64,000 nucleotides of DNA from Pseudomonadota bacterium (GCA_043809315.1 JAZDDX010000010.1:1-64000), one strand, 5' to 3'; positions 42,890 through 51,965 are shown, numbered from the stretch's first letter. Program-made: numbers and translations. The notes: generated by a model from the letters alone, not told the origin.

Positions 42890-45800
42890 ATGAACCCGAA
42901 CGGCCTGAACCGATCCGTCCCGTTGGCGATTCTCCTCTTCGCCGGCCTCTTGGGCGTCGGGGCCTATGCCAAGTTCCATCACGAGGCGTTCCGGTCCGCC
43001 GCGTTGGATCTCAAGATCACACGCTCGGAGGCCCTTCGAAACGCGAAGGAGTTTCTGACCTCGAACGGTTTCTCGATTGACGGCGCTGAATCATCGGCCG
43101 CTTTCTTTTCCCACGACGACTCAATTCTCTACCTCGAGAAGAACATGGGGACCTCCGAAGCCAACCGATGGCTTCGCGGGGGGGGCCTTCCGGTCTGGGG
43201 GTGGGAGGTTCGCTTCTTCTGGCCGCTCGAGAAAGAGGAATACCATGTCTGGTGGGCCCCCGACGGGGCTCTGCTGGGATTCCGTCACGACCTGATCCGA
43301 GAAAAGGCGAAACCGACCCTCTCGCAGTCGCAGGCCCTTTCGCTCGCGACCTCATTCGCGAAGAGCCGGCCCGAGTTCTCCCTCACCGACTATCGCCTGG
43401 TCGAACGCTCCAGCACCGAAGGGGCGCACCGAACCGATCATTTTTTCACCTGGAAATCGAAATCCAACCTCCTGGACGCCCGGCTCTACCTCCGAACCAC
43501 GGTCTCCGGAAACGAGGTGAGCGCGTTCCGCAAGGAAATCGCGGTCCCCCGCTCCTTCGCACGGGCGGAGGAAGAGATCGGGTCGCGCCGGGAACTGCTC
43601 TCCCTGATCGCGAACCGGATCGATTGGGTCTTGAGCCTAACGATCTTCCTCTTCCTCCTCGGCGCCTGGAAGCGGCGATGGCTCCGGTGGAAACCAGCCC
43701 TGTTCCTGGTCGGAGCCGTGGCCACGGTCGAGTTGATCAACCTCCTAAACGGCCTTCCCCTCGTCTGGCACGACTACTCCACGCAAGAGACGGTCTCGGC
43801 GTTCTGGCTCAATCGGATCGGGGTTGCACTGCTCGGTCTGCTCGCGAGCACAGCCTGGTGGGTCTTTCCGTACGGCTCCGCAGACGCCATGGGGAGAACG
43901 CTTCCCGGTTCGGAGTATTCCCTGGGGGAAATCCCGCGCCGCACGTTTTTCCGCTCCCGGCCGTTCGCGATCGCCACGCTCGCCGGTTTGGGGGCTGCGG
44001 GGATCCAGTTGGGATTCGTGGCCCTTTTCTATGTGCTGGGAAAACGGTTCTTCGGCTTCTACGCTCCGATGGACGTCCCTTACAGCGATCTCCTCACCTC
44101 GACGGTCCCGTGGATCCAGCCGCTCCTGATCGGTCTCTCGACCGCGCTTCAGGAGGAGACCGTCTACCGCCTCTTCGCGATCCCCCTGCTTTTCCGATTC
44201 ACCCGGCGGAGATGGATCGCCCTTCTTGTGCCGGCGCTTCTCTGGGGGTTCCTGCACAGCGGCTACTACGTCGAGCCGATCTTCGTGCGGGGACTCGAGC
44301 TTACGGTCGTCGGGATCTTCTTCGGCCTCGTCTTTCTCCGGTTCGGCATCTGGGCCACGATCGTGGCCCACTACACCTACAACGCGGCGATCAGCTCCTC
44401 GATCTTCTGGAGTTCCGGCTCGCCGGCTCTCGTTCTCTCCTCTCTCGTCGTCGTCGGGATCCTCGCGATTCCGCTTCTCTTGAGTGCCTGGCAGCGCACT
44501 CGGAAACGGGAGTCGTTCCATCCCGTTCCGTTTAAGCCGATCGACTGGCTTCCCGCCGGACCGGCGCCGTGGCAAGGGGGTTCCGACCGCCGGAAAGCCT
44601 CGCAGCGGGAGAACCCTCTGCCGATTCTTCCCCCGATTGCGGCCATGTTGGCCGTCACCCTGACATTCGTCTTCCTTCCCCCAAAATCGGCCCCTCCCCC
44701 GATGACGCTCGACCGGAGCGAGGCGATCGCGGCAGCCCGAAGGAATCTCGAGGAACTCGGGTATCACCTCGATCGACACCTCACCTCCGCCGCGATCTAT
44801 CAGACCTACCCCGGGTTGGCCGCGTCGTACCTGCGCACCCGGTCCGATGCCGCCGAGGCGGAGGCGTACCTCACGAGATTCCAGCCGAACCGATCGTACT
44901 GGTCGGTTCGGTTCGTATCCCCCGGCCGGCCTGATGAGTGCACGGCGGAAGTCGGATCGGACGGAACCATTCCGAGTTTCTCGTGTGAGATCGGAGAGGA
45001 GGCCCCCGGCTCGAAAATGACCGCGGCGGACGCTCGTGCCTTGGCAGAAACCTATCTCCGAGGCCGCGATTTCCGATCGGGCACCGTGCAATATATCGGC
45101 GCCTCCGAGCACGACCGCCCGAACCGGAAGGACTTCACGCACCGATGGATCGACGTCCGAGCCATTTTCGGCGAACTCCGGAGGTACATCGAGGTCGATA
45201 CGGGGGGGGGCCGCGTAACGTCGTTCGACACGTACCTCCAGGTCCCGGAAACGTTTAAACGGAAGGAGTCGGAACGAACCACTTGGGAGGTAATCCGGAA
45301 CATCCTCCGGGCACTCGCTCTTCTGGCCACCGCCGGGCTCGTGCTCCGGGCCCTGTTCGACCCGAAAGTAACCGCCTCGCTCCTGTCCCCTCTTCCCCTT
45401 CAGGCGGCCCTCGTCGGCGGACTCCTCTCCCTCCTCGACGCGGGAAACGCCTTTCCGCAGTTCTGGTCGGCGTATGAATCGACCAGCCCCCTTCCGGTCT
45501 ATCTCGCTCTCAAGGTTCTTTCGATCTTCGGCGGCGCCGCCACCGCGGCGATCGCAGCGTACCTCGCCACCCTTCTGTTCCTTACGCTGGCTCCGCAGGT
45601 CTTCCCGACCGCTCCGACCGAGGAGGATATGAGGATCGTCTCCCACCGCCCCCCCTGGCGATGGCGAGAATCCCGCGTCAGCTTCCTCTGGGCCCTGGCC
45701 ATCGTGTCGACCCAAATCCTGATCCGGCATCTCTCCGATCTCACCGTGGGGAATACCAACTCCGACCCGGTCGGCATCAACCTGGCGGTCTTCACAAATT

Positions 45801-46207
45801 ACCTACCGATCGTTTCAGGCTTCGGTGCGTTCTGGAGTGCGCTGGTCTTCTGGGCCGCTTTCGCCGCGCTGGTCGCGGCCGGGCAGAAATATCTCCGGGC
45901 GACCGCCGGAACCGCCACGCTCATCTTTGTCACGTGGGTCGCGCTCCTCATCCGCGGGAACACCGTAACCGACGCATTTCCGCACCTGGTGAATTTCCTG
46001 ATCCTGATGTTTCTCGTCCTTCGGAGAGTTCGATTTCATCTGCCGTTCTACGTCTGGTACGCATTCCTCTCCACGCTCATCCCCTTCCTCCCTTGGATCT
46101 TCGCCGAACACCGACATTTCCAATTTCAGGCTTTTCTGGCGGCCGGGGCGATTCTCTGGATCGTGGCGACACTCTTCCGAAGATCGGATATAATGATCCG
46201 GTCTTGA
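42890..46207 (+). CDS. Large CPBP (CAAX/Abi) intramembrane glutamic endopeptidase with internal duplication
   Basis: QEETVYR, WGFLH and AHYTYN motifs; two homologous extracytoplasmic modules. Confidence 0.85.
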   Translation: MNPNGLNRSVPLAILLFAGLLGVGAYAKFHHEAFRSAALDLKITRSEALRNAKEFLTSNGFSIDGAESSAAFFSHDDSILYLEKNMGTSEANRWLRGGGLPVWGWEVRFFWPLEKEEYHVWWAPDGALLGFRHDLIREKAKPTLSQSQALSLATSFAKSRPEFSLTDYRLVERSSTEGAHRTDHFFTWKSKSNLLDARLYLRTTVSGNEVSAFRKEIAVPRSFARAEEEIGSRRELLSLIANRIDWVLSLTIFLFLLGAWKRRWLRWKPALFLVGAVATVELINLLNGLPLVWHDYSTQETVSAFWLNRIGVALLGLLASTAWWVFPYGSADAMGRTLPGSEYSLGEIPRRTFFRSRPFAIATLAGLGAAGIQLGFVALFYVLGKRFFGFYAPMDVPYSDLLTSTVPWIQPLLIGLSTALQEETVYRLFAIPLLFRFTRRRWIALLVPALLWGFLHSGYYVEPIFVRGLELTVVGIFFGLVFLRFGIWATIVAHYTYNAAISSSIFWSSGSPALVLSSLVVVGILAIPLLLSAWQRTRKRESFHPVPFKPIDWLPAGPAPWQGGSDRRKASQRENPLPILPPIAAMLAVTLTFVFLPPKSAPPPMTLDRSEAIAAARRNLEELGYHLDRHLTSAAIYQTYPGLAASYLRTRSDAAEAEAYLTRFQPNRSYWSVRFVSPGRPDECTAEVGSDGTIPSFSCEIGEEAPGSKMTAADARALAETYLRGRDFRSGTVQYIGASEHDRPNRKDFTHRWIDVRAIFGELRRYIEVDTGGGRVTSFDTYLQVPETFKRKESERTTWEVIRNILRALALLATAGLVLRALFDPKVTASLLSPLPLQAALVGGLLSLLDAGNAFPQFWSAYESTSPLPVYLALKVLSIFGGAATAAIAAYLATLLFLTLAPQVFPTAPTEEDMRIVSHRPPWRWRESRVSFLWALAIVSTQILIRHLSDLTVGNTNSDPVGINLAVFTNYLPIVSGFGAFWSALVFWAAFAALVAAGQKYLRATAGTATLIFVTWVALLIRGNTVTDAFPHLVNFLILMFLVLRRVRFHLPFYVWYAFLSTLIPFLPWIFAEHRHFQFQAFLAAGAILWIVATLFRRSDIMIRS

Positions 46208-47439
46208 ATCGACGCACTTCGATCTTTGCCCTCGCCGTTTCGTTGTCGTTCCTCCTTCCGAACCTGGCTCGGGCTCAGGCGATTGCTATCGCAAACGACA
46301 ACGGCGTCATGGTTTTCGCCGAGGCGAAAAGTTCGGCCGATGTCCTCGTGACGCTCTCCAAGGGGAAAAAGATCAGCGTCACCGGCCAGCGCGGGGAGTT
46401 CTACCAGGTGAAAATCCAGCTCCCGGACGGTTTTGTCCTCGACGGCTTCACCCCGGTTCACATGCTCACGATCGTTTCCGGGTATGTGGCACCTCCGGTG
46501 CAGGCGGAGCCCCGTCCCTCCTCGGCCCCGGCCTGGGCCGCTCCGGAATCGAATTATCCCTCTCCTTCGAGGTCGGCTCCGCGACCGCCCCCCCCATCCC
46601 GATCCTCTGGATCGAGTTCCTCCGATTCGTACGACGATAGTTCCTCGTCCTCCTCCGACTTCGGGGAGCTGAAAGACCGCTTCCGTCTCCGGGCGGGCCC
46701 GGGGATCTTGATCTACAGTTACAAGTTTTTGACGGCCGGGGCGAAACCCGGACAGCTCTTCACCTATAACTTGAGCGGCCTGGCGGCCAACATTGAATTC
46801 ACCGGTTGGGTCTTCGAGGGATCCGATCGGACGTTCCGCATCGGCTTGACCGGCGGGTACGAACACGCCTTCTTCCGGACCAAGACCAACGTCTCCTCCG
46901 CAAGCGCGTCGGGCAACTCCAAGACGGCCGCCAACTCGATCGACGACATGTCCGGAGGGCTAGTGCTCGAGTACCGGTTCGAGCCGCAGCCGAACTCCCT
47001 CACGGTGGGAGTCAAGGGGGGATACCGCTGGTTCAAGTTCACCGGAGACGACTTGACCGACGCGGCCGGGAAGCGCCTCAACATCTACGTCAGCCAGACC
47101 GTGTCGAGCATCCTGGGCGGTCCGTATGTTGTGATCCCGCTCGACAAAGGAAAGAGCTTTCTCGCGTCCTTGGGGATCGATCTCTTGCTCAAGAATACCG
47201 TCAAGGAGAGTCCGGCCGGAACCTCGGGAGCCACGCCGAAAGGGAAGTTCGGATATGTCCCGTCGCTCTTCTTGACCTACGGTTTCTCCGCCCGTCACTG
47301 GGCCGACCTCGGGTACCGGATGTACGTTCAGAACTTCAGCTACAGCGGGTTGGCCAGCCGCGCCTCGAACAACGTGACCGACGGAACGGCCAAAACGCTC
47401 CTCCACGAATTCCGGCTGTCGTACGAGTACCGCTTCTAG
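46204..47439 (+). CDS. SH3b-like domain + Pro/Ser linker + outer-membrane beta-barrel protein
   Basis: Signal ..LARA-Q; SH3-like GQRGEFYQV..GF; amphipathic strands ending YEYRF; TTG start. Confidence 0.7.
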   Translation: MNRRTSIFALAVSLSFLLPNLARAQAIAIANDNGVMVFAEAKSSADVLVTLSKGKKISVTGQRGEFYQVKIQLPDGFVLDGFTPVHMLTIVSGYVAPPVQAEPRPSSAPAWAAPESNYPSPSRSAPRPPPPSRSSGSSSSDSYDDSSSSSSDFGELKDRFRLRAGPGILIYSYKFLTAGAKPGQLFTYNLSGLAANIEFTGWVFEGSDRTFRIGLTGGYEHAFFRTKTNVSSASASGNSKTAANSIDDMSGGLVLEYRFEPQPNSLTVGVKGGYRWFKFTGDDLTDAAGKRLNIYVSQTVSSILGGPYVVIPLDKGKSFLASLGIDLLLKNTVKESPAGTSGATPKGKFGYVPSLFLTYGFSARHWADLGYRMYVQNFSYSGLASRASNNVTDGTAKTLLHEFRLSYEYRF

Positions 47440-47450
47440 TCCGGGCCACG

Positions 47451-48989
47451 ATGAACTTCGGCCCGTTCAGCGCCAGGTCCCGAGAGGAGATGCTCACGAC
47501 CTGCGCGGCCCAGCCTCTCGACCTCGTCGTCATCGGCGGGGGGATCACCGGCGCCGGAATTCTGCGCGATGCGACCTTGCGCGGGTTTCGCTGCGCTCTG
47601 TTCGAAAAGGATGACTTTGCTTCCGGAACCTCCAGCCGTTCATCCAAGCTGATCCACGGCGGGATCCGCTACCTCGAGACCGGCCAGATCCCGCTCGTTT
47701 TCGAGGGACTCCGGGAACGTCGACTCCTTCTGAACCTCGCCCCCCAGTTTGTGAAGCCGCTGTCGTTCGTCTTTCCGGTCTATCGCGGGCAGGCAAGATC
47801 TCTCCCGACCGTAGCCGCCGGGGTGTACCTCTATCATTTTCTCTCCCTCTTCCGGGATATCGATCGCCCCCGCGTGATGCTTACCAAAAGGACACTCACG
47901 CTGGAACCGATGCTCCGATCGGAGGGTCTTACCGGTTCGGTGGTTTATTACGATGGTGTCACCGACGATTCGGCGCTCACGTTGGCCACCGTCCGTTCTG
48001 CGTGGGAACACGGCGGCATCGCCGTCAACCACGCGGAGGTGATCTCCCTTCTCGAGGAAAAGAACCGCGCCGCAGGGGTCCGGGTCCGGGACCGTCTTCG
48101 CGGCGGGGAGTATGAAATCCGCGCCCGCTGGATCATCAATGCCACTGGCCCGTGGTCCGATCGATTCCGCCGGGGGGCCGCTCTCGACCGGCCGATCCTC
48201 CGTCCGACCAAAGGGGTTCATCTGGTTCTGGACCGCACACGCTTGCGGATTTCGAACGCGATCGTGATGCTCCACCCCATCGATGGTCGCGTCACGTTTG
48301 TGATCCCGTGGAGAGGCATGCTCCTCGTCGGCACAACCGATACTGATTATCCAGGAAACCCCGACCAGCCGGAAGTCCTGCCTGCCGACGTCCGGTACCT
48401 TCTGGAAGCCGTCAACCACTATTTCCCGTTGGCCCGTCTCCAGCCGGCTCATGTCGTCAGCACGTTCGCCGGCGTCCGCCCTCTCCTTGCGGGACGGAAA
48501 CCCCCGGAAAAGGTCAAACCGTCCGCCCTTTCCCGCGATCACCGGATCTTCGAGGAACGTCCCGGGTTCTGGAGCGTCGCCGGCGGCAAACTCACATCGT
48601 TCCGAAGGATGGCCGAAGAGACGCTCGACCGCGTGATGCGCGCCGATCCGGAGTGGCGATCTCGCTTCCGGGAGCATCCGACCCGGTACATGCCGTACAG
48701 CCGGGACGTCAAGCCTCCCGGAAAGGACGGGGAGATCATCGCCGGCACCGGGATCCGCTGGTCCGACATCGTCCGTGCCATCGACGACGGGATGGCCGCC
48801 ACCGTGGAAGATGTCCTGGAACGGCGGACGCCGCTTTCCCTGCTGGATCGACGTCACGGAGCCGATCTGGTACATCGGGTCGCGCAGCTGCTCACGGAGC
48901 GCCTGGGACCTCTTCCCGGTTCTCCAAGTCAGCTCGGGAATTATCATGAAACGATCCGCCGCGCCGAAGAAGGCCTCGAACGCTCCTGA
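47451..48989 (+). CDS. glpD: FAD-dependent glycerol-3-phosphate dehydrogenase
   Basis: IGGGITGAG, SGTSSRSSKLIHGGIRYL, GTTD, GGKLT. Confidence 0.93.
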   Translation: MNFGPFSARSREEMLTTCAAQPLDLVVIGGGITGAGILRDATLRGFRCALFEKDDFASGTSSRSSKLIHGGIRYLETGQIPLVFEGLRERRLLLNLAPQFVKPLSFVFPVYRGQARSLPTVAAGVYLYHFLSLFRDIDRPRVMLTKRTLTLEPMLRSEGLTGSVVYYDGVTDDSALTLATVRSAWEHGGIAVNHAEVISLLEEKNRAAGVRVRDRLRGGEYEIRARWIINATGPWSDRFRRGAALDRPILRPTKGVHLVLDRTRLRISNAIVMLHPIDGRVTFVIPWRGMLLVGTTDTDYPGNPDQPEVLPADVRYLLEAVNHYFPLARLQPAHVVSTFAGVRPLLAGRKPPEKVKPSALSRDHRIFEERPGFWSVAGGKLTSFRRMAEETLDRVMRADPEWRSRFREHPTRYMPYSRDVKPPGKDGEIIAGTGIRWSDIVRAIDDGMAATVEDVLERRTPLSLLDRRHGADLVHRVAQLLTERLGPLPGSPSQLGNYHETIRRAEEGLERS

Positions 48990-49902
48990 ACGGACGTTCG
49001 ACATCGTCGGGATCGGCCGCAATTCATGGGACCGTCTCGTCGTGGTCGCGAATTACCCCCCCGCCGACGCCAAAGTCGAAGCGTCGACCCTCGACATCCA
49101 GCCCGGTGGACAGGTTGCGACCGCCCTCGTCGCGGCGTCCCGTCTCGGCGCAAGAACGCGATATCTGGGAAAATTCGGAGACGACGCCGGAGGGCGGGCG
49201 GTTCGTGCCTCCCTTTCCCGCGAGGGGATCGATCTTTCCGGATGCCGGGTGTTGACCGGCGTCTCGAACCAATCGGCGTTCATCGTCGTCGACCGCAAAC
49301 ATCACACGAGAAACGTCTTTTCCCACGGCGATCCGCGCCTGCGCATCGAATCGGATGATTTTCCGCACGAAGCGGTGACTTCCGGCCGGATTCTTTATCT
49401 CGGGGGGAGGAACCCCCGCGAGATGATCGGATACGCCCGAACCGGGCGGAAAGCGGGGTGCGTCGTCACGGTCGACGCCGACTCGGCCGCCGACGGGGCC
49501 GCGGAGCTGTTGGCACACGCTCACGTCGTCATCTGCAGCGAGCCTTTCGTCGCCGAACAGACCGGGGAACGGTCGATTCGAAAAGGGCTCCGCGAAATTT
49601 CGAAACTGGGTCCGGAGTTCGTCAGCGTGACGCGCGGATCGCGGGGGGCGATCGCACTCTATCGCGACCGGTTCTTCGAACAGCCCGCTTTTTCAGTCGA
49701 TGTGGTCGACACGACCGGGGCCGGGGACGTTTTTCACGGCGCCCTTCTCGTCGGGATCCTCGAACGGCGTCCGATCCCCGATCTCCTCCGCCTCGCCAAT
49801 GCGGCCGCAGCACTCAAGTGCCGTTGCCTCGGCGGGCAGAAGGGGATCGCGAAGCGCACGGATGTCAACCGCTTCCTCGCATCCCATCCAGCGAATCCCT
49901 GA
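48946..49902 (+). CDS. PfkB family carbohydrate kinase
   Basis: PGGQVATA and DTTGAGDVF motifs. Confidence 0.9.
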   Translation: MKRSAAPKKASNAPERTFDIVGIGRNSWDRLVVVANYPPADAKVEASTLDIQPGGQVATALVAASRLGARTRYLGKFGDDAGGRAVRASLSREGIDLSGCRVLTGVSNQSAFIVVDRKHHTRNVFSHGDPRLRIESDDFPHEAVTSGRILYLGGRNPREMIGYARTGRKAGCVVTVDADSAADGAAELLAHAHVVICSEPFVAEQTGERSIRKGLREISKLGPEFVSVTRGSRGAIALYRDRFFEQPAFSVDVVDTTGAGDVFHGALLVGILERRPIPDLLRLANAAAALKCRCLGGQKGIAKRTDVNRFLASHPANP

Positions 49903-49950: not shown

Positions 49951-50967
49951 ATGGCAATCCATGTTGGTTTGATGGGGTTCGGCCGGATCGGGCGGAACAT
50001 CTTCCGCATCCTGTACGGCCAGGATGACATTCAGGTCGTGGCGATCTCCGACATCGTCGATCCGCCGGCCTTGGAGTACTTACTGCAGTTCGACACGGTT
50101 CACGGTCGGTTTCCCGAGCCGGTCACGGCAAAGGGGGACACGCTGTACGTCAAAGGACGGCAGGTAAAACTCGTCCAAGGCAAAGAGCCCAAAGACGTCC
50201 CGTGGAAGGATCTCGGGGTCGACATCGTCATCGAGGCCTCCGCGCGCGGCAGAACCCGGGCTTCTTTGGAAGATCACCTCAAACAAGGTGCGAAGCGGGT
50301 CGTCTTGACCGTTCCGGCGCACGATCCGGTCGATGCCGTGATCGTCCGCGGCGTGAACGACGAAGTGTTGAACGCCAAACACCGGATCATCTCGGCGGCA
50401 TCGATCACGACGAACTGCGCCGGCTTGATGCTCAAAATCCTCAACAATGCCTTCGGCGTCGAGCGGGCCTTCATGACGACGATCCACGCCTACACCAACG
50501 CCCAGCGCCTGGCCGACGTCCCCCACACCGACCTCCGGCAGTGCCGGGCGGCAGCGGAAAACATCATCCCGACCGAGACGCACGTCACCGAAGCGATCGG
50601 GGAGATCATCCCGGAACTGAAGGGCAAGTTCGCCGGGATGGCGATGAACGTGCCCGTACCGGACGGATCGAACGTCGACCTCGTGACCGAGACGAAGCAG
50701 CCGGTCACCGTGGAATCGGTGAACGAGATTTTCCGGAGCGCGGCTGGTTCGATTTACAAGGGGATCGTTTCGTACATGGACGACCCGATCGTATCGAGCG
50801 ACGTGATCGGCGACTCCCACTCCGTGGTCTTTGACTCGCTCGCGACCATGACCCTGGGGGACCGAATGGTCAAAACGCTCGGCTGGTACGACAACGGTTG
50901 GGGATACGCCCACCGGGTCGTGGAACTGGTCCAACGTATGTCGAAGTTCGAAGGAGGTGCGCGATGA
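49951..50967 (+). CDS. GAPDH-family protein lacking the catalytic cysteine (putative pseudoenzyme)
   Basis: GFGRIGR, FDTVHG and WYDN present; active-site motif reads AASITTNC instead of NASCTTNC. Confidence 0.9.
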   Translation: MAIHVGLMGFGRIGRNIFRILYGQDDIQVVAISDIVDPPALEYLLQFDTVHGRFPEPVTAKGDTLYVKGRQVKLVQGKEPKDVPWKDLGVDIVIEASARGRTRASLEDHLKQGAKRVVLTVPAHDPVDAVIVRGVNDEVLNAKHRIISAASITTNCAGLMLKILNNAFGVERAFMTTIHAYTNAQRLADVPHTDLRQCRAAAENIIPTETHVTEAIGEIIPELKGKFAGMAMNVPVPDGSNVDLVTETKQPVTVESVNEIFRSAAGSIYKGIVSYMDDPIVSSDVIGDSHSVVFDSLATMTLGDRMVKTLGWYDNGWGYAHRVVELVQRMSKFEGGAR

Positions 50968-51965
50968 CCATTCGGATCGGAATCAACGGCTTCGGCCGGA
51001 TCGGGCGGGCGGTCTACCGCCTGGTTGCCGACCGGAAAGACATTCAGGTCGTGGCGGTCAACGACATCACCGCACCCGAAACGCTCGTCTATCTACTCAA
51101 GTTCGACACGATCTTCGGAATCTTTCCCCACTCGACCGCCTTGGTGGACGGCATCCTGACCACCGCGAACCAGAAGACGAAGATGTTCCGAGAGAACGAT
51201 CCGACGAAGCTTCCGTGGAAAGACCTCGGCGTCGACATCGCGATCGAATCGACGGGGAAGTTCACGAAACGGGCCGATGTCGAGAAACACCTTGCGGCGG
51301 GAGCGAAAAAGGTGATTTTGACCGTCCCCCCGAAAGATCCTTTGGACGCGATGGTCGTCATCGGCGTGAACGACGGGATCCTGAACAAGGATCATCGATT
51401 GGTTTCGAACGCCTCCTGCACGACCAACTGCCTGGCGCCGATGGTGAAGGTGTTGAACGACAACTTTGGAATCGAGCGCGGCTTCATGACGACCGTCCAC
51501 TCGTACACCAACGACCAGCGCCTGAGCGATCAGTATCACAAGGACCTCCGCCGAGCGCGGGCGGCGAACGAGAATATCATCCCGACAACGACCGGAGCAG
51601 CCCGGGCGGTCGGGAAGATCCTGCCGGAGCTGGCCGGGAAACTGGACGGGACCGCGATGCGGATCCCTCTCCCGGACGGATCGATCGTCGATCTCGTGTC
51701 GGTCTTGAAAAAGAAGACGACCGCCGAGGAGATCAATCGAACGATGAAAACCGCCAGCGAGACATACCTGAAGGGGATCCTCCAATACTCGGAAGACCCG
51801 ATCGTTTCAAGCGACATCATCGGGAACACGCACTCGTCGATCTTCGATGCCCCGTTCACGAAGGTGATCGGCGGGAACTACGTCAAGACCGTGGCGTGGT
51901 ACGACAACGAGTGGGGGTATTCCTGCCGCGTGGTCGACCTGATCGCGAAGCTAGCTTCGCTGTAA
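50964..51965 (+). CDS. gap: Type I glyceraldehyde-3-phosphate dehydrogenase
   Basis: INGFGRIGR, NASCTTNCLAP, TTGAA, AMRIP, WYDNEWGY; AAGGAGG RBS; ATGA overlap with upstream gene. Confidence 0.97.
   Translation: MTIRIGINGFGRIGRAVYRLVADRKDIQVVAVNDITAPETLVYLLKFDTIFGIFPHSTALVDGILTTANQKTKMFRENDPTKLPWKDLGVDIAIESTGKFTKRADVEKHLAAGAKKVILTVPPKDPLDAMVVIGVNDGILNKDHRLVSNASCTTNCLAPMVKVLNDNFGIERGFMTTVHSYTNDQRLSDQYHKDLRRARAANENIIPTTTGAARAVGKILPELAGKLDGTAMRIPLPDGSIVDLVSVLKKKTTAEEINRTMKTASETYLKGILQYSEDPIVSSDIIGNTHSSIFDAPFTKVIGGNYVKTVAWYDNEWGYSCRVVDLIAKLASL

What the first reader, a model, noticed from the sequence alone, without database searches (positions are those of the whole stretch)
49951..51965. Catalytically dead GAPDH paralogue coupled to an intact gap: candidate pseudoenzyme regulatory subunit
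Seen: two full-length GAPDH-family genes overlap by ATGA (50964-50967). The second is canonical. In the first, the nucleophile Cys codon is ATC/Ile (50404-50406, AASITTNC), two base changes from TGC. The phosphate-binding Arg is Asn (AMNVP vs AMRIP), the TTGAA loop is TETHV, and DNE is DNG. GFGRIGR, the Rossmann Asp, the His of TTIHAYT and the Asn of WYDN are kept, and the ORF has no stops or frameshifts. Known: GapA, GapB and Epd all need this Cys. Inference: loss is confined to substrate-side residues, which fits selection for an NAD(H)-binding non-catalytic partner, for example a heterotetramer subunit or redox sensor that tunes GAPDH. I know of no described system like this. No pgk or tpi follows the pair.
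Basis: partly seen in the sequence, partly recalled or inferred. Interest (0 to 1): 0.85.

Follow-up and report, generated by a model that had tools for sequence, protein, structure and literature searches.

The report
Cysteine-less GAPDH partner gene beside gap
Directly in front of this bacterium's only working GAPDH gene, and overlapping it, lies an old, well-preserved sister gene that cannot perform GAPDH chemistry; the same two-gene unit is inherited together in at least ten bacterial phyla, so this classic enzyme probably has an undescribed non-catalytic partner.

Summary
gapX (49951-50967) has Ile for the nucleophile Cys, Asn for Arg231, Gln for Arg195, His for Gly209 and Gly for Glu314. 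It keeps GxGxxG, the Rossmann Asp, His176 and Asn313, and overlaps an intact gap by ATGA.

It is neither decay nor a recent copy of its neighbour. It belongs to an old clade of upstream paralogues. Of 68 such genes found, 65 are followed by an intact canonical gap, one by a split gap, two reach contig ends, and none stands alone. Ten named phyla carry the pair.

New here: the clade is defined by Asn231, loss of Gly209 and loss of Glu314, not by Cys loss. Position 149 is Cys in 24 of 68 and one of seven other residues in the rest.

The partner gaps form their own clade, and the two subtrees share 25 of 40 splits. In this bacterial family gapX evolves as slowly as gap.

A mixed tetramer is my best reading, but it is inferred: complex prediction gave only weak support. 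Six literature searches found no description. This scan has reported the same kind of pair at least eight times on other DNA.

The parts
49951..50967 (+). gapX: GAPDH-family paralogue without the catalytic Cys (338 aa)
   Evidence: Gp_dh_N and Gp_dh_C are present. TIGR01534 scores 365.8, just under its cut-off of 367.2. AF2 model has mean pLDDT 91.3.
49975..49995 (+). GFGRIGR dinucleotide-binding motif, kept
   Evidence: G9, G11 and R15 are 100% and G14 is 98% conserved in 44 upstream paralogues.
50404..50406 (+). ATC = Ile152 at the nucleophile position (Cys149 in the usual numbering, which is recalled)
50485..50559 (+). S-loop (residues 179-203). It contains His179 (kept) and Gln197 in place of Arg195. 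It is among the best-conserved stretches of the clade.
   Evidence: This stretch is below pLDDT 50 in the monomer model.
50572..50589 (+). Altered Pi-site loop TETHVT (canonical TTTGAA); His211 replaces Gly209
   Evidence: This position is W/H/F/Y in 113 of 119 nearest relatives.
50647..50649 (+). AAC = Asn233 in place of the substrate-phosphate Arg231
   Evidence: Asn in 61 of 69 pieces scored and 110 of 119 nearest relatives.
50896..50898 (+). GGT = Gly316 in place of the invariant Glu314
   Evidence: Glu occurs in 0 of 44 upstream paralogues and in 100% of canonical gaps.
50953..50967 (+). Coupling signals: GGAGG (50953-50957), then ATGA, the stop/start overlap (50964-50967)
   Evidence: read directly from the sequence.
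50964..51965 (+). gap: canonical type I GAPDH (333 aa) with all catalytic residues. It is the only other GAPDH-family gene in the genome.
   Evidence: (TIGR01534 434.2, over its cut-off).
47451..49902 (+). Context only: FAD-dependent glycerol-3-phosphate-dehydrogenase-like gene (47451-48989) and pfkB-family sugar kinase (48946-49902) upstream on the same strand
   Evidence: The order is kept in two of the four family genomes (L005, L006), while L004 has pfkB only and L007 glpD only; it is absent from 43 loci of other groups.

Best explanation
gapX encodes a folded GAPDH-like protein that cannot oxidise glyceraldehyde-3-phosphate. It has no thiol nucleophile, no Arg231 or Arg195 anion site, and a bulky His where Gly209 forms the phosphate site. 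It is made from the same mRNA as the cell's only catalytic GAPDH, by coupled translation. I propose that it assembles with that GAPDH into mixed tetramers, for example two gapX and two Gap subunits. The interfaces and probably the NAD(H) pocket are preserved, so it would act as a non-catalytic subunit that sets the stability, cooperativity or NAD(H) response of the active subunits. Shown: loss of the catalytic set, purifying selection, membership of an old clade, strict adjacency to a dedicated clade of canonical gaps, and joint inheritance with them. Inferred: NAD(H) binding, physical assembly with Gap, and any effect on activity.
For: 1. Catalytic residues are lost and fold motifs kept.
2. 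Of 78 columns invariant in 126 canonical gaps, 39 are kept in at least 90% of 44 upstream paralogues: GxGxxG, most of the S-loop, residues 234-240 and 279-284. The other 39 are relaxed: 148-159, 210-215, R197, R233, E316, N8, N33.
3. Selection: within the window's bacterial family gapX pairs are 65-73% identical and gap pairs 66-75%. Where dS is finite, dN/dS is 0.15-0.17 for gapX and 0.13-0.17 for gap; the other pairs are saturated.
4. Adjacency: 65 of 68 upstream-type genes are followed by an intact canonical gap at an estimated -10 to +134 nt, and 51 of those 65 overlap. One is followed by a split gap, two reach contig ends, and none lacks a partner where sequence is available.
5. Trees: the upstream paralogues are one side of a branch with 100 support (FastTree, 173 rows; IQ-TREE quick, 53 rows). 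The partner gaps form a clade (support 91) apart from 83 solo gaps.
6. Joint inheritance: the two subtrees share 25 of 40 splits (shuffled labels: mean 0.18, maximum 3 in 1000).
7. Partner gaps and upstream paralogues share S-loop residues Ala188 and Val190, where solo gaps have Leu.
8. The pair is the genome's only GAPDH.
9. Complex prediction of gapX with Gap: weak support. Score 0.46, best of 3 controls 0.00. That mark was reached by 58 of 80 solved complexes and 2 of 110 mismatched pairs, but at 0.60 or under by only 7 of those 80 and by both mismatches. The runs agree in at least 99% of contacts and the partner's pLDDT is at least 91. GAPDH tetramers are solved, so this pass may reflect likeness only.
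Against: 1. No direct evidence of binding. The complex score is weak and cannot tell mixed tetramers from separate homotetramers.
2. Shared splits and adjacency follow from linkage alone and do not require contact.
3. About a third of the clade keeps Cys149 and nearly all keep His176. Asn231 is a specific, conserved replacement rather than a free site (61 of 69), which could point to a different ligand or reaction.
4. NAD contact positions are less strict than in true GAPDHs: Asn313 is kept in 75%, Gly97 in 55%, and in this gapX the aromatic residue at 99 is Gly.
5. No expression evidence was obtained.
6. An earlier report of this scan on the same kind of pair was later marked 'part of it fell', with no statement of which part.
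Confidence: 0.5

Rival explanations
1. gapX forms its own homotetramer and has a separate non-catalytic job, such as binding or buffering NAD(H), sensing a metabolite, or a moonlighting role. It would be co-transcribed with gap only for co-regulation.
For: The tetramer-interface regions and the Rossmann motifs are kept, which fits a homotetramer as well as a mixed one. The complex prediction is only weak.
Against: Overlap or near-overlap of stop and start in most of 65 pairs is typical of products made in fixed ratio (general knowledge). The partner gaps form their own clade rather than being ordinary solo gaps. No upstream paralogue was found away from a gap.
Confidence: 0.22
2. The upstream paralogues are enzymes with a changed reaction or substrate, for example a non-phosphorylated aldehyde or alcohol handled through His176 and NAD. 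Cys149 would be dispensable in some lineages.
For: His176 is kept in 67 of 69 pieces and Asn231 is specifically conserved in 61 of 69. Cys149 is kept in 24 of 68 located genes and 98 of 119 nearest database relatives. Three acidobacterial upstream copies keep both Cys149 and Arg231. A 2025 review notes that some members of the wider GapDH superfamily lost the Cys yet stay active (PMC12041015; passages read).
Against: Position 149 takes eight different residues (C, S, I, V, A, N, P, T), with at least 12 changes among 43 rows. The Pi loop is highly variable across the clade. No single catalytic set is conserved. Ile cannot act as a nucleophile (established chemistry).
Confidence: 0.15
3. Recent decay of a duplicate, or a sequencing or assembly error.
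For: None beyond the missing Cys itself.
Against: The frame is intact. Ile or Val is conserved at this site in relatives down to 59% identity. The same pair occurs in 5 of 5 genomes of the family, the window's own included. The non-synonymous rate equals that of gap.
Confidence: 0.01

Closest known systems
Type I phosphorylating GAPDH (GapA; TIGR01534; EC 1.2.1.12), e.g. PDB 2ep7 and 1gd1
   Same: Same two domains and the same length. The best PDB sequence match is 2ep7_A at E 5e-105 over residues 1-329. GxGxxG, Asp32, His176, Asn313 and much of the S-loop are kept.
   Different: Lacks Cys149, Arg231, Arg195, Gly209 and Glu314. Scores just under the TIGR01534 cut-off. Forms a separate clade.
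Chloroplast A2B2 GAPDH (GapA/GapB) of land plants (recalled; no call)
   Same: Two GAPDH paralogues that build one mixed tetramer, one of them carrying the regulation.
   Different: GapB is catalytically active and regulates through a C-terminal Cys-bearing extension. gapX is Cys-less at the active site and has only about five extra C-terminal residues. Assembly of gapX with Gap is not shown.
Dead-paralogue subunits ('prozymes'): trypanosome AdoMetDC prozyme (PMC6221367) and plant PDX1.2 (PMC6829848); only the abstracts in the search listings were seen
   Same: A catalytically dead paralogue that is retained and, in those cases, acts with or on the active enzyme.
   Different: Different enzyme families, and eukaryotic. 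For gapX the heteromer and any activation are untested.
Erythrose-4-phosphate dehydrogenase (Epd; TIGR01532)
   Same: A GAPDH paralogue with altered function.
   Different: Epd needs the Cys (recalled). gapX scores 308.6 against a cut-off of 530.55.

Membership tests
Type I phosphorylating GAPDH (TIGR01534) | Gp_dh_N plus Gp_dh_C architecture at full length | tested here: met
   PF00044 at 1.1e-31 and PF02800 at 3e-56.
Type I phosphorylating GAPDH (TIGR01534) | Score over the curated equivalog cut-off | tested here: not met
   365.8 against 367.2. The neighbouring gap scores 434.2.
Type I phosphorylating GAPDH (TIGR01534) | Nucleophile Cys149 | tested here: not met
   Ile (ATC, 50404-50406).
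Type I phosphorylating GAPDH (TIGR01534) | General base His176 | tested here: met
   His179 in TTIHAYT.
Type I phosphorylating GAPDH (TIGR01534) | Anion sites: Arg231, Arg195, Thr208-Gly209 (roles recalled from the GAPDH literature) | tested here: not met
   Asn, Gln and Thr-His respectively.
Type I phosphorylating GAPDH (TIGR01534) | NAD fold: GxGxxG, Asp32, Asn313 | tested here: met
   Actual binding was not tested.
Upstream Cys-variable GAPDH paralogue clade (unnamed; 'gapX type') | Falls within the clade separated from all canonical gaps | tested here: met
   support 100; 45 rows, of which 44 are upstream paralogues and one is L030's, labelled solo; support 100.
Upstream Cys-variable GAPDH paralogue clade (unnamed; 'gapX type') | Asn at 231, no Glu at 314, Gly209 replaced | tested here: met
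Upstream Cys-variable GAPDH paralogue clade (unnamed; 'gapX type') | Lies immediately upstream of a canonical gap on the same strand | tested here: met
   (ATGA overlap); 65 of 68 in the clade, with none lacking a partner where sequence is available.
Pseudoenzyme partner subunit (prozyme type) | Catalytic residues lost under purifying selection | tested here: met
Pseudoenzyme partner subunit (prozyme type) | Physical complex with the active paralogue | tested here: inconclusive
   weak support, score 0.46 against best control 0.00; possibly from likeness to solved GAPDH tetramers.
Pseudoenzyme partner subunit (prozyme type) | Changes the activity or regulation of the active subunit | not testable with these tools
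   Needs biochemistry.
Chloroplast-type A2B2 GAPDH | Both subunits catalytic, with a regulatory C-terminal extension carrying a Cys pair (recalled) | tested here: not met
   no active-site Cys. The protein ends about five residues after the alignment and that tail has no Cys.
Erythrose-4-phosphate dehydrogenase (TIGR01532) | Score over the curated cut-off | tested here: not met
   308.6 against 530.55.

The most novel reading that the evidence does not exclude
In these bacteria glycolytic GAPDH is an obligate mixed tetramer in which half the sites are permanently dead. The gapX subunits would keep NAD(H) binding and the S-loop contacts and act as built-in allosteric or redox-state sensors for the two live subunits. 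That would be a genetic hard-wiring of the half-of-the-sites behaviour long debated for GAPDH. The module would have spread as a unit across at least ten phyla, replacing the ordinary homotetrameric enzyme.
Probability: 0.3. Interest if true: 0.85.

Novelty: new variant of a known kind. Interest (0 to 1): 0.75.

Why it matters
GAPDH is among the most studied enzymes, and bacterial GAPDH is treated as a homotetramer of identical active subunits. A conserved, co-inherited, non-catalytic sister subunit in many uncultured lineages (Acidobacteriota, Marinimicrobia, Bacteroidota, Actinomycetota, Planctomycetota and others) would add a new quaternary form and a new mode of control to central carbon metabolism.

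It would also give a natural system for studying cooperativity between GAPDH subunits.

In practice, automatic annotation calls these genes 'type I glyceraldehyde-3-phosphate dehydrogenase' (source names). Genomes with the pair are therefore credited with two GAPDHs, and metabolic models may count a dead one.

Tried and rejected
1. Expression. The run search found only small shares: 0.18, 0.07 and 0.06 of sampled words. Laying three runs gave mostly short contigs of other organisms' conserved gap motifs. One DNA run had a 189-nt contig across the gapX/gap junction with one mismatch. The RNA run had no near-identical piece. Nothing can be said about transcription.

2. The 50%-identity representative library gave only distant GAPDHs and multi-domain proteins. 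It did not help define the clade.

3. Closest relatives' DNA for a clean dN/dS. dN/dS therefore rests on genomes 65-73% identical, where dS is largely saturated.

4. Fusion evidence. Three predicted proteins of 673-703 aa (P0287-P0289) have an upstream-type half followed by a canonical half. Each is a single sequence on one contig, and with overlapping genes a one-base error would produce the same thing. They are not used as support.

5. ESM Atlas returned only generic GAPDH clusters.

6. Promoter and terminator scan showed nothing above shuffles.

7. Conserved neighbours outside the family. Ten same-strand ORFs starting within 400 bp downstream of the pair, from nine loci, were scanned: pyruvate kinase, a DUF4147/MOFRL protein, a TrkA-type channel, a GH57 enzyme, a GGDEF-EAL protein, DUF4351, and four with no family. 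None was pgk or tpi. Only the two-gene unit is conserved.

8. Recent pseudogene or assembly error: rejected.

Full report
**The observation**

The window holds two full-length GAPDH-family genes on the + strand. These are gapX (49951-50967, 338 aa) and gap (50964-51965, 333 aa). They overlap by ATGA, and a GGAGG lies six bases before the second start. Both have the Gp_dh_N and Gp_dh_C domains. They align without gaps at 51% identity.

- Ile (ATC, 50404-50406) at the nucleophile position
- Asn for Arg231
- TETHVT for TTTGAA, so His replaces Gly209
- Gly for Glu314
- DLRQCR for DLRRAR, so Gln replaces Arg195

The usual residue numbering and the roles of these residues are recalled from the GAPDH literature, not taken from a call. 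GFGRIGR, Asp34, His179 and Asn315 are kept.

gap passes the curated type I GAPDH model (434.2 against 367.2). gapX falls just under it at 365.8. The genome is 2.42 Mb and 96% complete. It has no other GAPDH-family gene, and pgk lies on another contig.

**Not decay, and not a copy of the neighbour**

A search of 5.8 billion proteins listed 119 relatives besides the query. The nearest are 59-86% identical to gapX, which is closer than its own neighbour. At the nucleophile position 98 have Cys, 14 Ile, 6 Val and 1 Ser. All 119 have Gly at 314, 110 have Asn at 231, and 113 have Trp, His, Phe or Tyr at 209. The 21 Cys-less hits include all 17 of the nearest relatives (P0003-P0019).

All four other genomes of the window's bacterial family carry the same tandem, with Ile or Val at this site. 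So does one genome from another order of the phylum. The ten other same-order genomes showed no tandem with this query.

**A widespread two-gene unit**

I combined three sources:
- a scan of species-representative genomes (best 80 loci)
- a sample of 81 Acidobacteriota genomes (10 had two adjacent matches and 8 of these were fetched)
- a metagenome scan (best 80 loci)

I flagged upstream-type genes by one sequence feature, no Glu at 314, and then counted neighbours. Of 69 flagged pieces, one is the tail of a broken downstream gap in L030. Of the other 68:
- 65 are followed on the same strand by an intact canonical gap, at an estimated -10 to +134 nt (51 of 65 overlap; starts were estimated from the alignment)
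- 1 (L030) is followed by a gap split into two frames
- 2 run into a contig end
- none lacks a partner where sequence is available

In all 44 complete pairs the odd copy is the upstream one. Record titles place the pairs in ten named phyla: Acidobacteriota, Fidelibacterota (Marinimicrobia), Bacteroidota, Actinomycetota, Planctomycetota, Lentisphaerota, Bdellovibrionota, Thermodesulfobacteriota, Pseudomonadota and Ca. Eiseniibacteriota. One pair in these counts (L107) comes from a genome flagged as unpublished.

**What defines the clade**

Position 149 in the 68 upstream genes is Cys 24, Ser 19, Ile 7, Val 6, Ala 5, Asn 3, Pro 2, Thr 2 (after removing the L030 artefact). Among the 69 pieces, His176 is kept in 67 (Lys in 2). 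Residue 231 is Asn 61, Arg 4 (one of them the artefact), Ser 2, His 1, Lys 1.

The clade is therefore defined by loss of Arg231, Gly209 and Glu314. It is not defined by loss of Cys. On an IQ-TREE (quick) tree of 43 upstream paralogues and 10 canonical gaps, residue 149 needs at least 12 changes of state, and Cys against non-Cys needs at least 4. Three acidobacterial upstream copies keep both Cys149 and Arg231 and may be less degenerate forms.

**Phylogeny and joint inheritance**

In a FastTree of 173 GAPDHs, the upstream paralogues are one side of a branch with 100 support. The partner gaps form a clade (support 91; 44 partners plus one solo gene) distinct from 83 solo gaps. The quick IQ-TREE also gives 100 support for the upstream clade.

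Restricted to 43 loci, the upstream and partner subtrees share 25 of 40 splits. With shuffled labels the mean is 0.18 and the maximum 3 in 1000. The two genes have therefore travelled together. This shows linkage, not contact.

Partner gaps and upstream paralogues share S-loop residues Ala188 and Val190, where solo gaps have Leu. Partner gaps also carry Met at position 51 (93%), where solo gaps mostly have His.

**Selection**

Within the window's family, gapX pairs are 65-73% identical and gap pairs 66-75%. Across all 43 loci the upstream copies evolve faster, with mean identity 46% against 63%.

Nei-Gojobori estimates give pN 0.17-0.24 for both genes, with pS 0.62-0.91. Where dS is finite, dN/dS is about 0.15-0.17 for gapX and 0.13-0.17 for gap. 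The remaining pairs are saturated, so these are rough figures.

**What is kept and what is lost**

Of 78 columns invariant in canonical gaps, 39 are kept in at least 90% of upstream paralogues:
- the GxGxxG glycines and Arg15
- much of the S-loop (Leu187, Asp189, Arg196 and Arg199 at 100%)
- residues 234-240
- residues 279-284, which are more conserved here than in real GAPDHs

The other 39 are relaxed: the whole active-site helix 148-159, the Pi loop 210-215, Arg197, Arg233, Glu316, Asn8 and Asn33.

NAD-contact positions (roles recalled) are mostly kept but less strictly: Asp or Glu at 34 in 100%, Asn315 in 75%, an aromatic residue at 319 in 84%.

The AF2 model of gapX is confident (mean pLDDT 91.3). 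The exception is residues 182-200, the S-loop, which falls below 50 in the monomer. A stretch that is strongly conserved yet not fixed in a monomer model fits a role in subunit contacts. That is inference.

**Mechanism**

My best reading, at about 0.5, is a non-catalytic subunit that assembles with the co-translated Gap into mixed tetramers.

The one complex prediction allowed gave weak support. The score was 0.46 and the best of 3 controls was 0.00. That mark was reached by 58 of 80 solved complexes and 2 of 110 mismatched pairs, but at 0.60 or under by only 7 of those 80 and by both mismatches. The runs agree in at least 99% of contacts, and the partner's pLDDT is at least 91. GAPDH tetramers are solved, so this may be likeness only, and it cannot separate mixed from homomeric assembly.

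The rivals are:
- a separate homotetramer with its own non-catalytic role (about 0.22)
- an enzyme with a changed reaction (about 0.15). This is favoured by the conserved His176 and the specific Asn231, and disfavoured by eight different residues at 149 and a hypervariable Pi loop.
- decay or error (about 0.01)

**Context**

Upstream on the same strand lie a glycerol-3-phosphate-dehydrogenase-like gene and a pfkB-family kinase. The full order is kept in two of the four family genomes (L005, L006); L004 keeps pfkB only and L007 glpD only. Neither gene was found in 43 loci of other groups. Same-strand ORFs just downstream of the pair in nine other loci (ten ORFs scanned) are unrelated to each other, and none is pgk or tpi.

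**Literature and earlier notes**

Six full-text searches found no paper describing a Cys-less or non-catalytic class I GAPDH paralogue beside gap. In the passages I read of a 2025 review of aldehyde dehydrogenase superfamilies (PMC12041015), pseudoenzymes are mentioned only for ALDH16. Subscription journals and supplementary files were not searchable, so a description there cannot be excluded.

This scan has reported the same kind of pair at least eight times on other genomes. One of those reports was later marked 'part of it fell', without saying which part. I therefore keep the claims of binding, of 'dead' for the whole clade, and of 'undescribed' explicitly provisional.

**Verdict**

The feature is real and conserved. 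It is very probably non-catalytic for the GAPDH reaction. It is part of an old, co-inherited two-gene GAPDH module for which I found no description. The partner-subunit mechanism is plausible but unproven.

Noticed in passing
L105, L106, L109 (Acidobacteriota genomes G083, G113, G056): Three upstream paralogues keep both Cys149 and Arg231 but have Gly or Ser at 314 and an altered Pi loop (SETNAA or SSTNAA). They may be less degenerate, possibly still active, members of the same clade.
   Followed up: partly
G044 contigs C2 (76501-78497) and C8 (62245-64244): One Marinimicrobia genome shows two separate upstream/canonical pairs on two contigs. This could be a real duplication of the module or mixed strains in the bin.
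   Followed up: no
P0287, P0288, P0289: Three single-contig predicted proteins of 673-703 aa have an upstream-type half fused in frame to a canonical gap half. They could be natural fusions or one-base errors at the overlap.
   Followed up: partly
window 47451-49902: A glycerol-3-phosphate-dehydrogenase-like gene and a pfkB-family kinase precede gapX on the same strand, with 48 nt between pfkB and gapX. The full order is kept in two of four family genomes; one more has pfkB only and one glpD only.
   Followed up: partly
Partner gaps, position 51 of P0002 (window about 51114-51116): Partner-type gaps have Met (93%; Phe in this window) where solo gaps mostly have His (59%). This is one of only three columns that separate partnered from solo gaps.
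   Followed up: no
L042, L043 (Actinomycetota): In these upstream paralogues both Cys149 (to Asn) and His176 (to Lys) are replaced.
   Followed up: no
window 45661-47439 (+): A long ORF with a Ser/Pro-rich middle part ends in ...SYEYRF. A C-terminal Phe of this kind is typical of outer-membrane beta-barrel proteins (recalled). It was not analysed.
   Followed up: no
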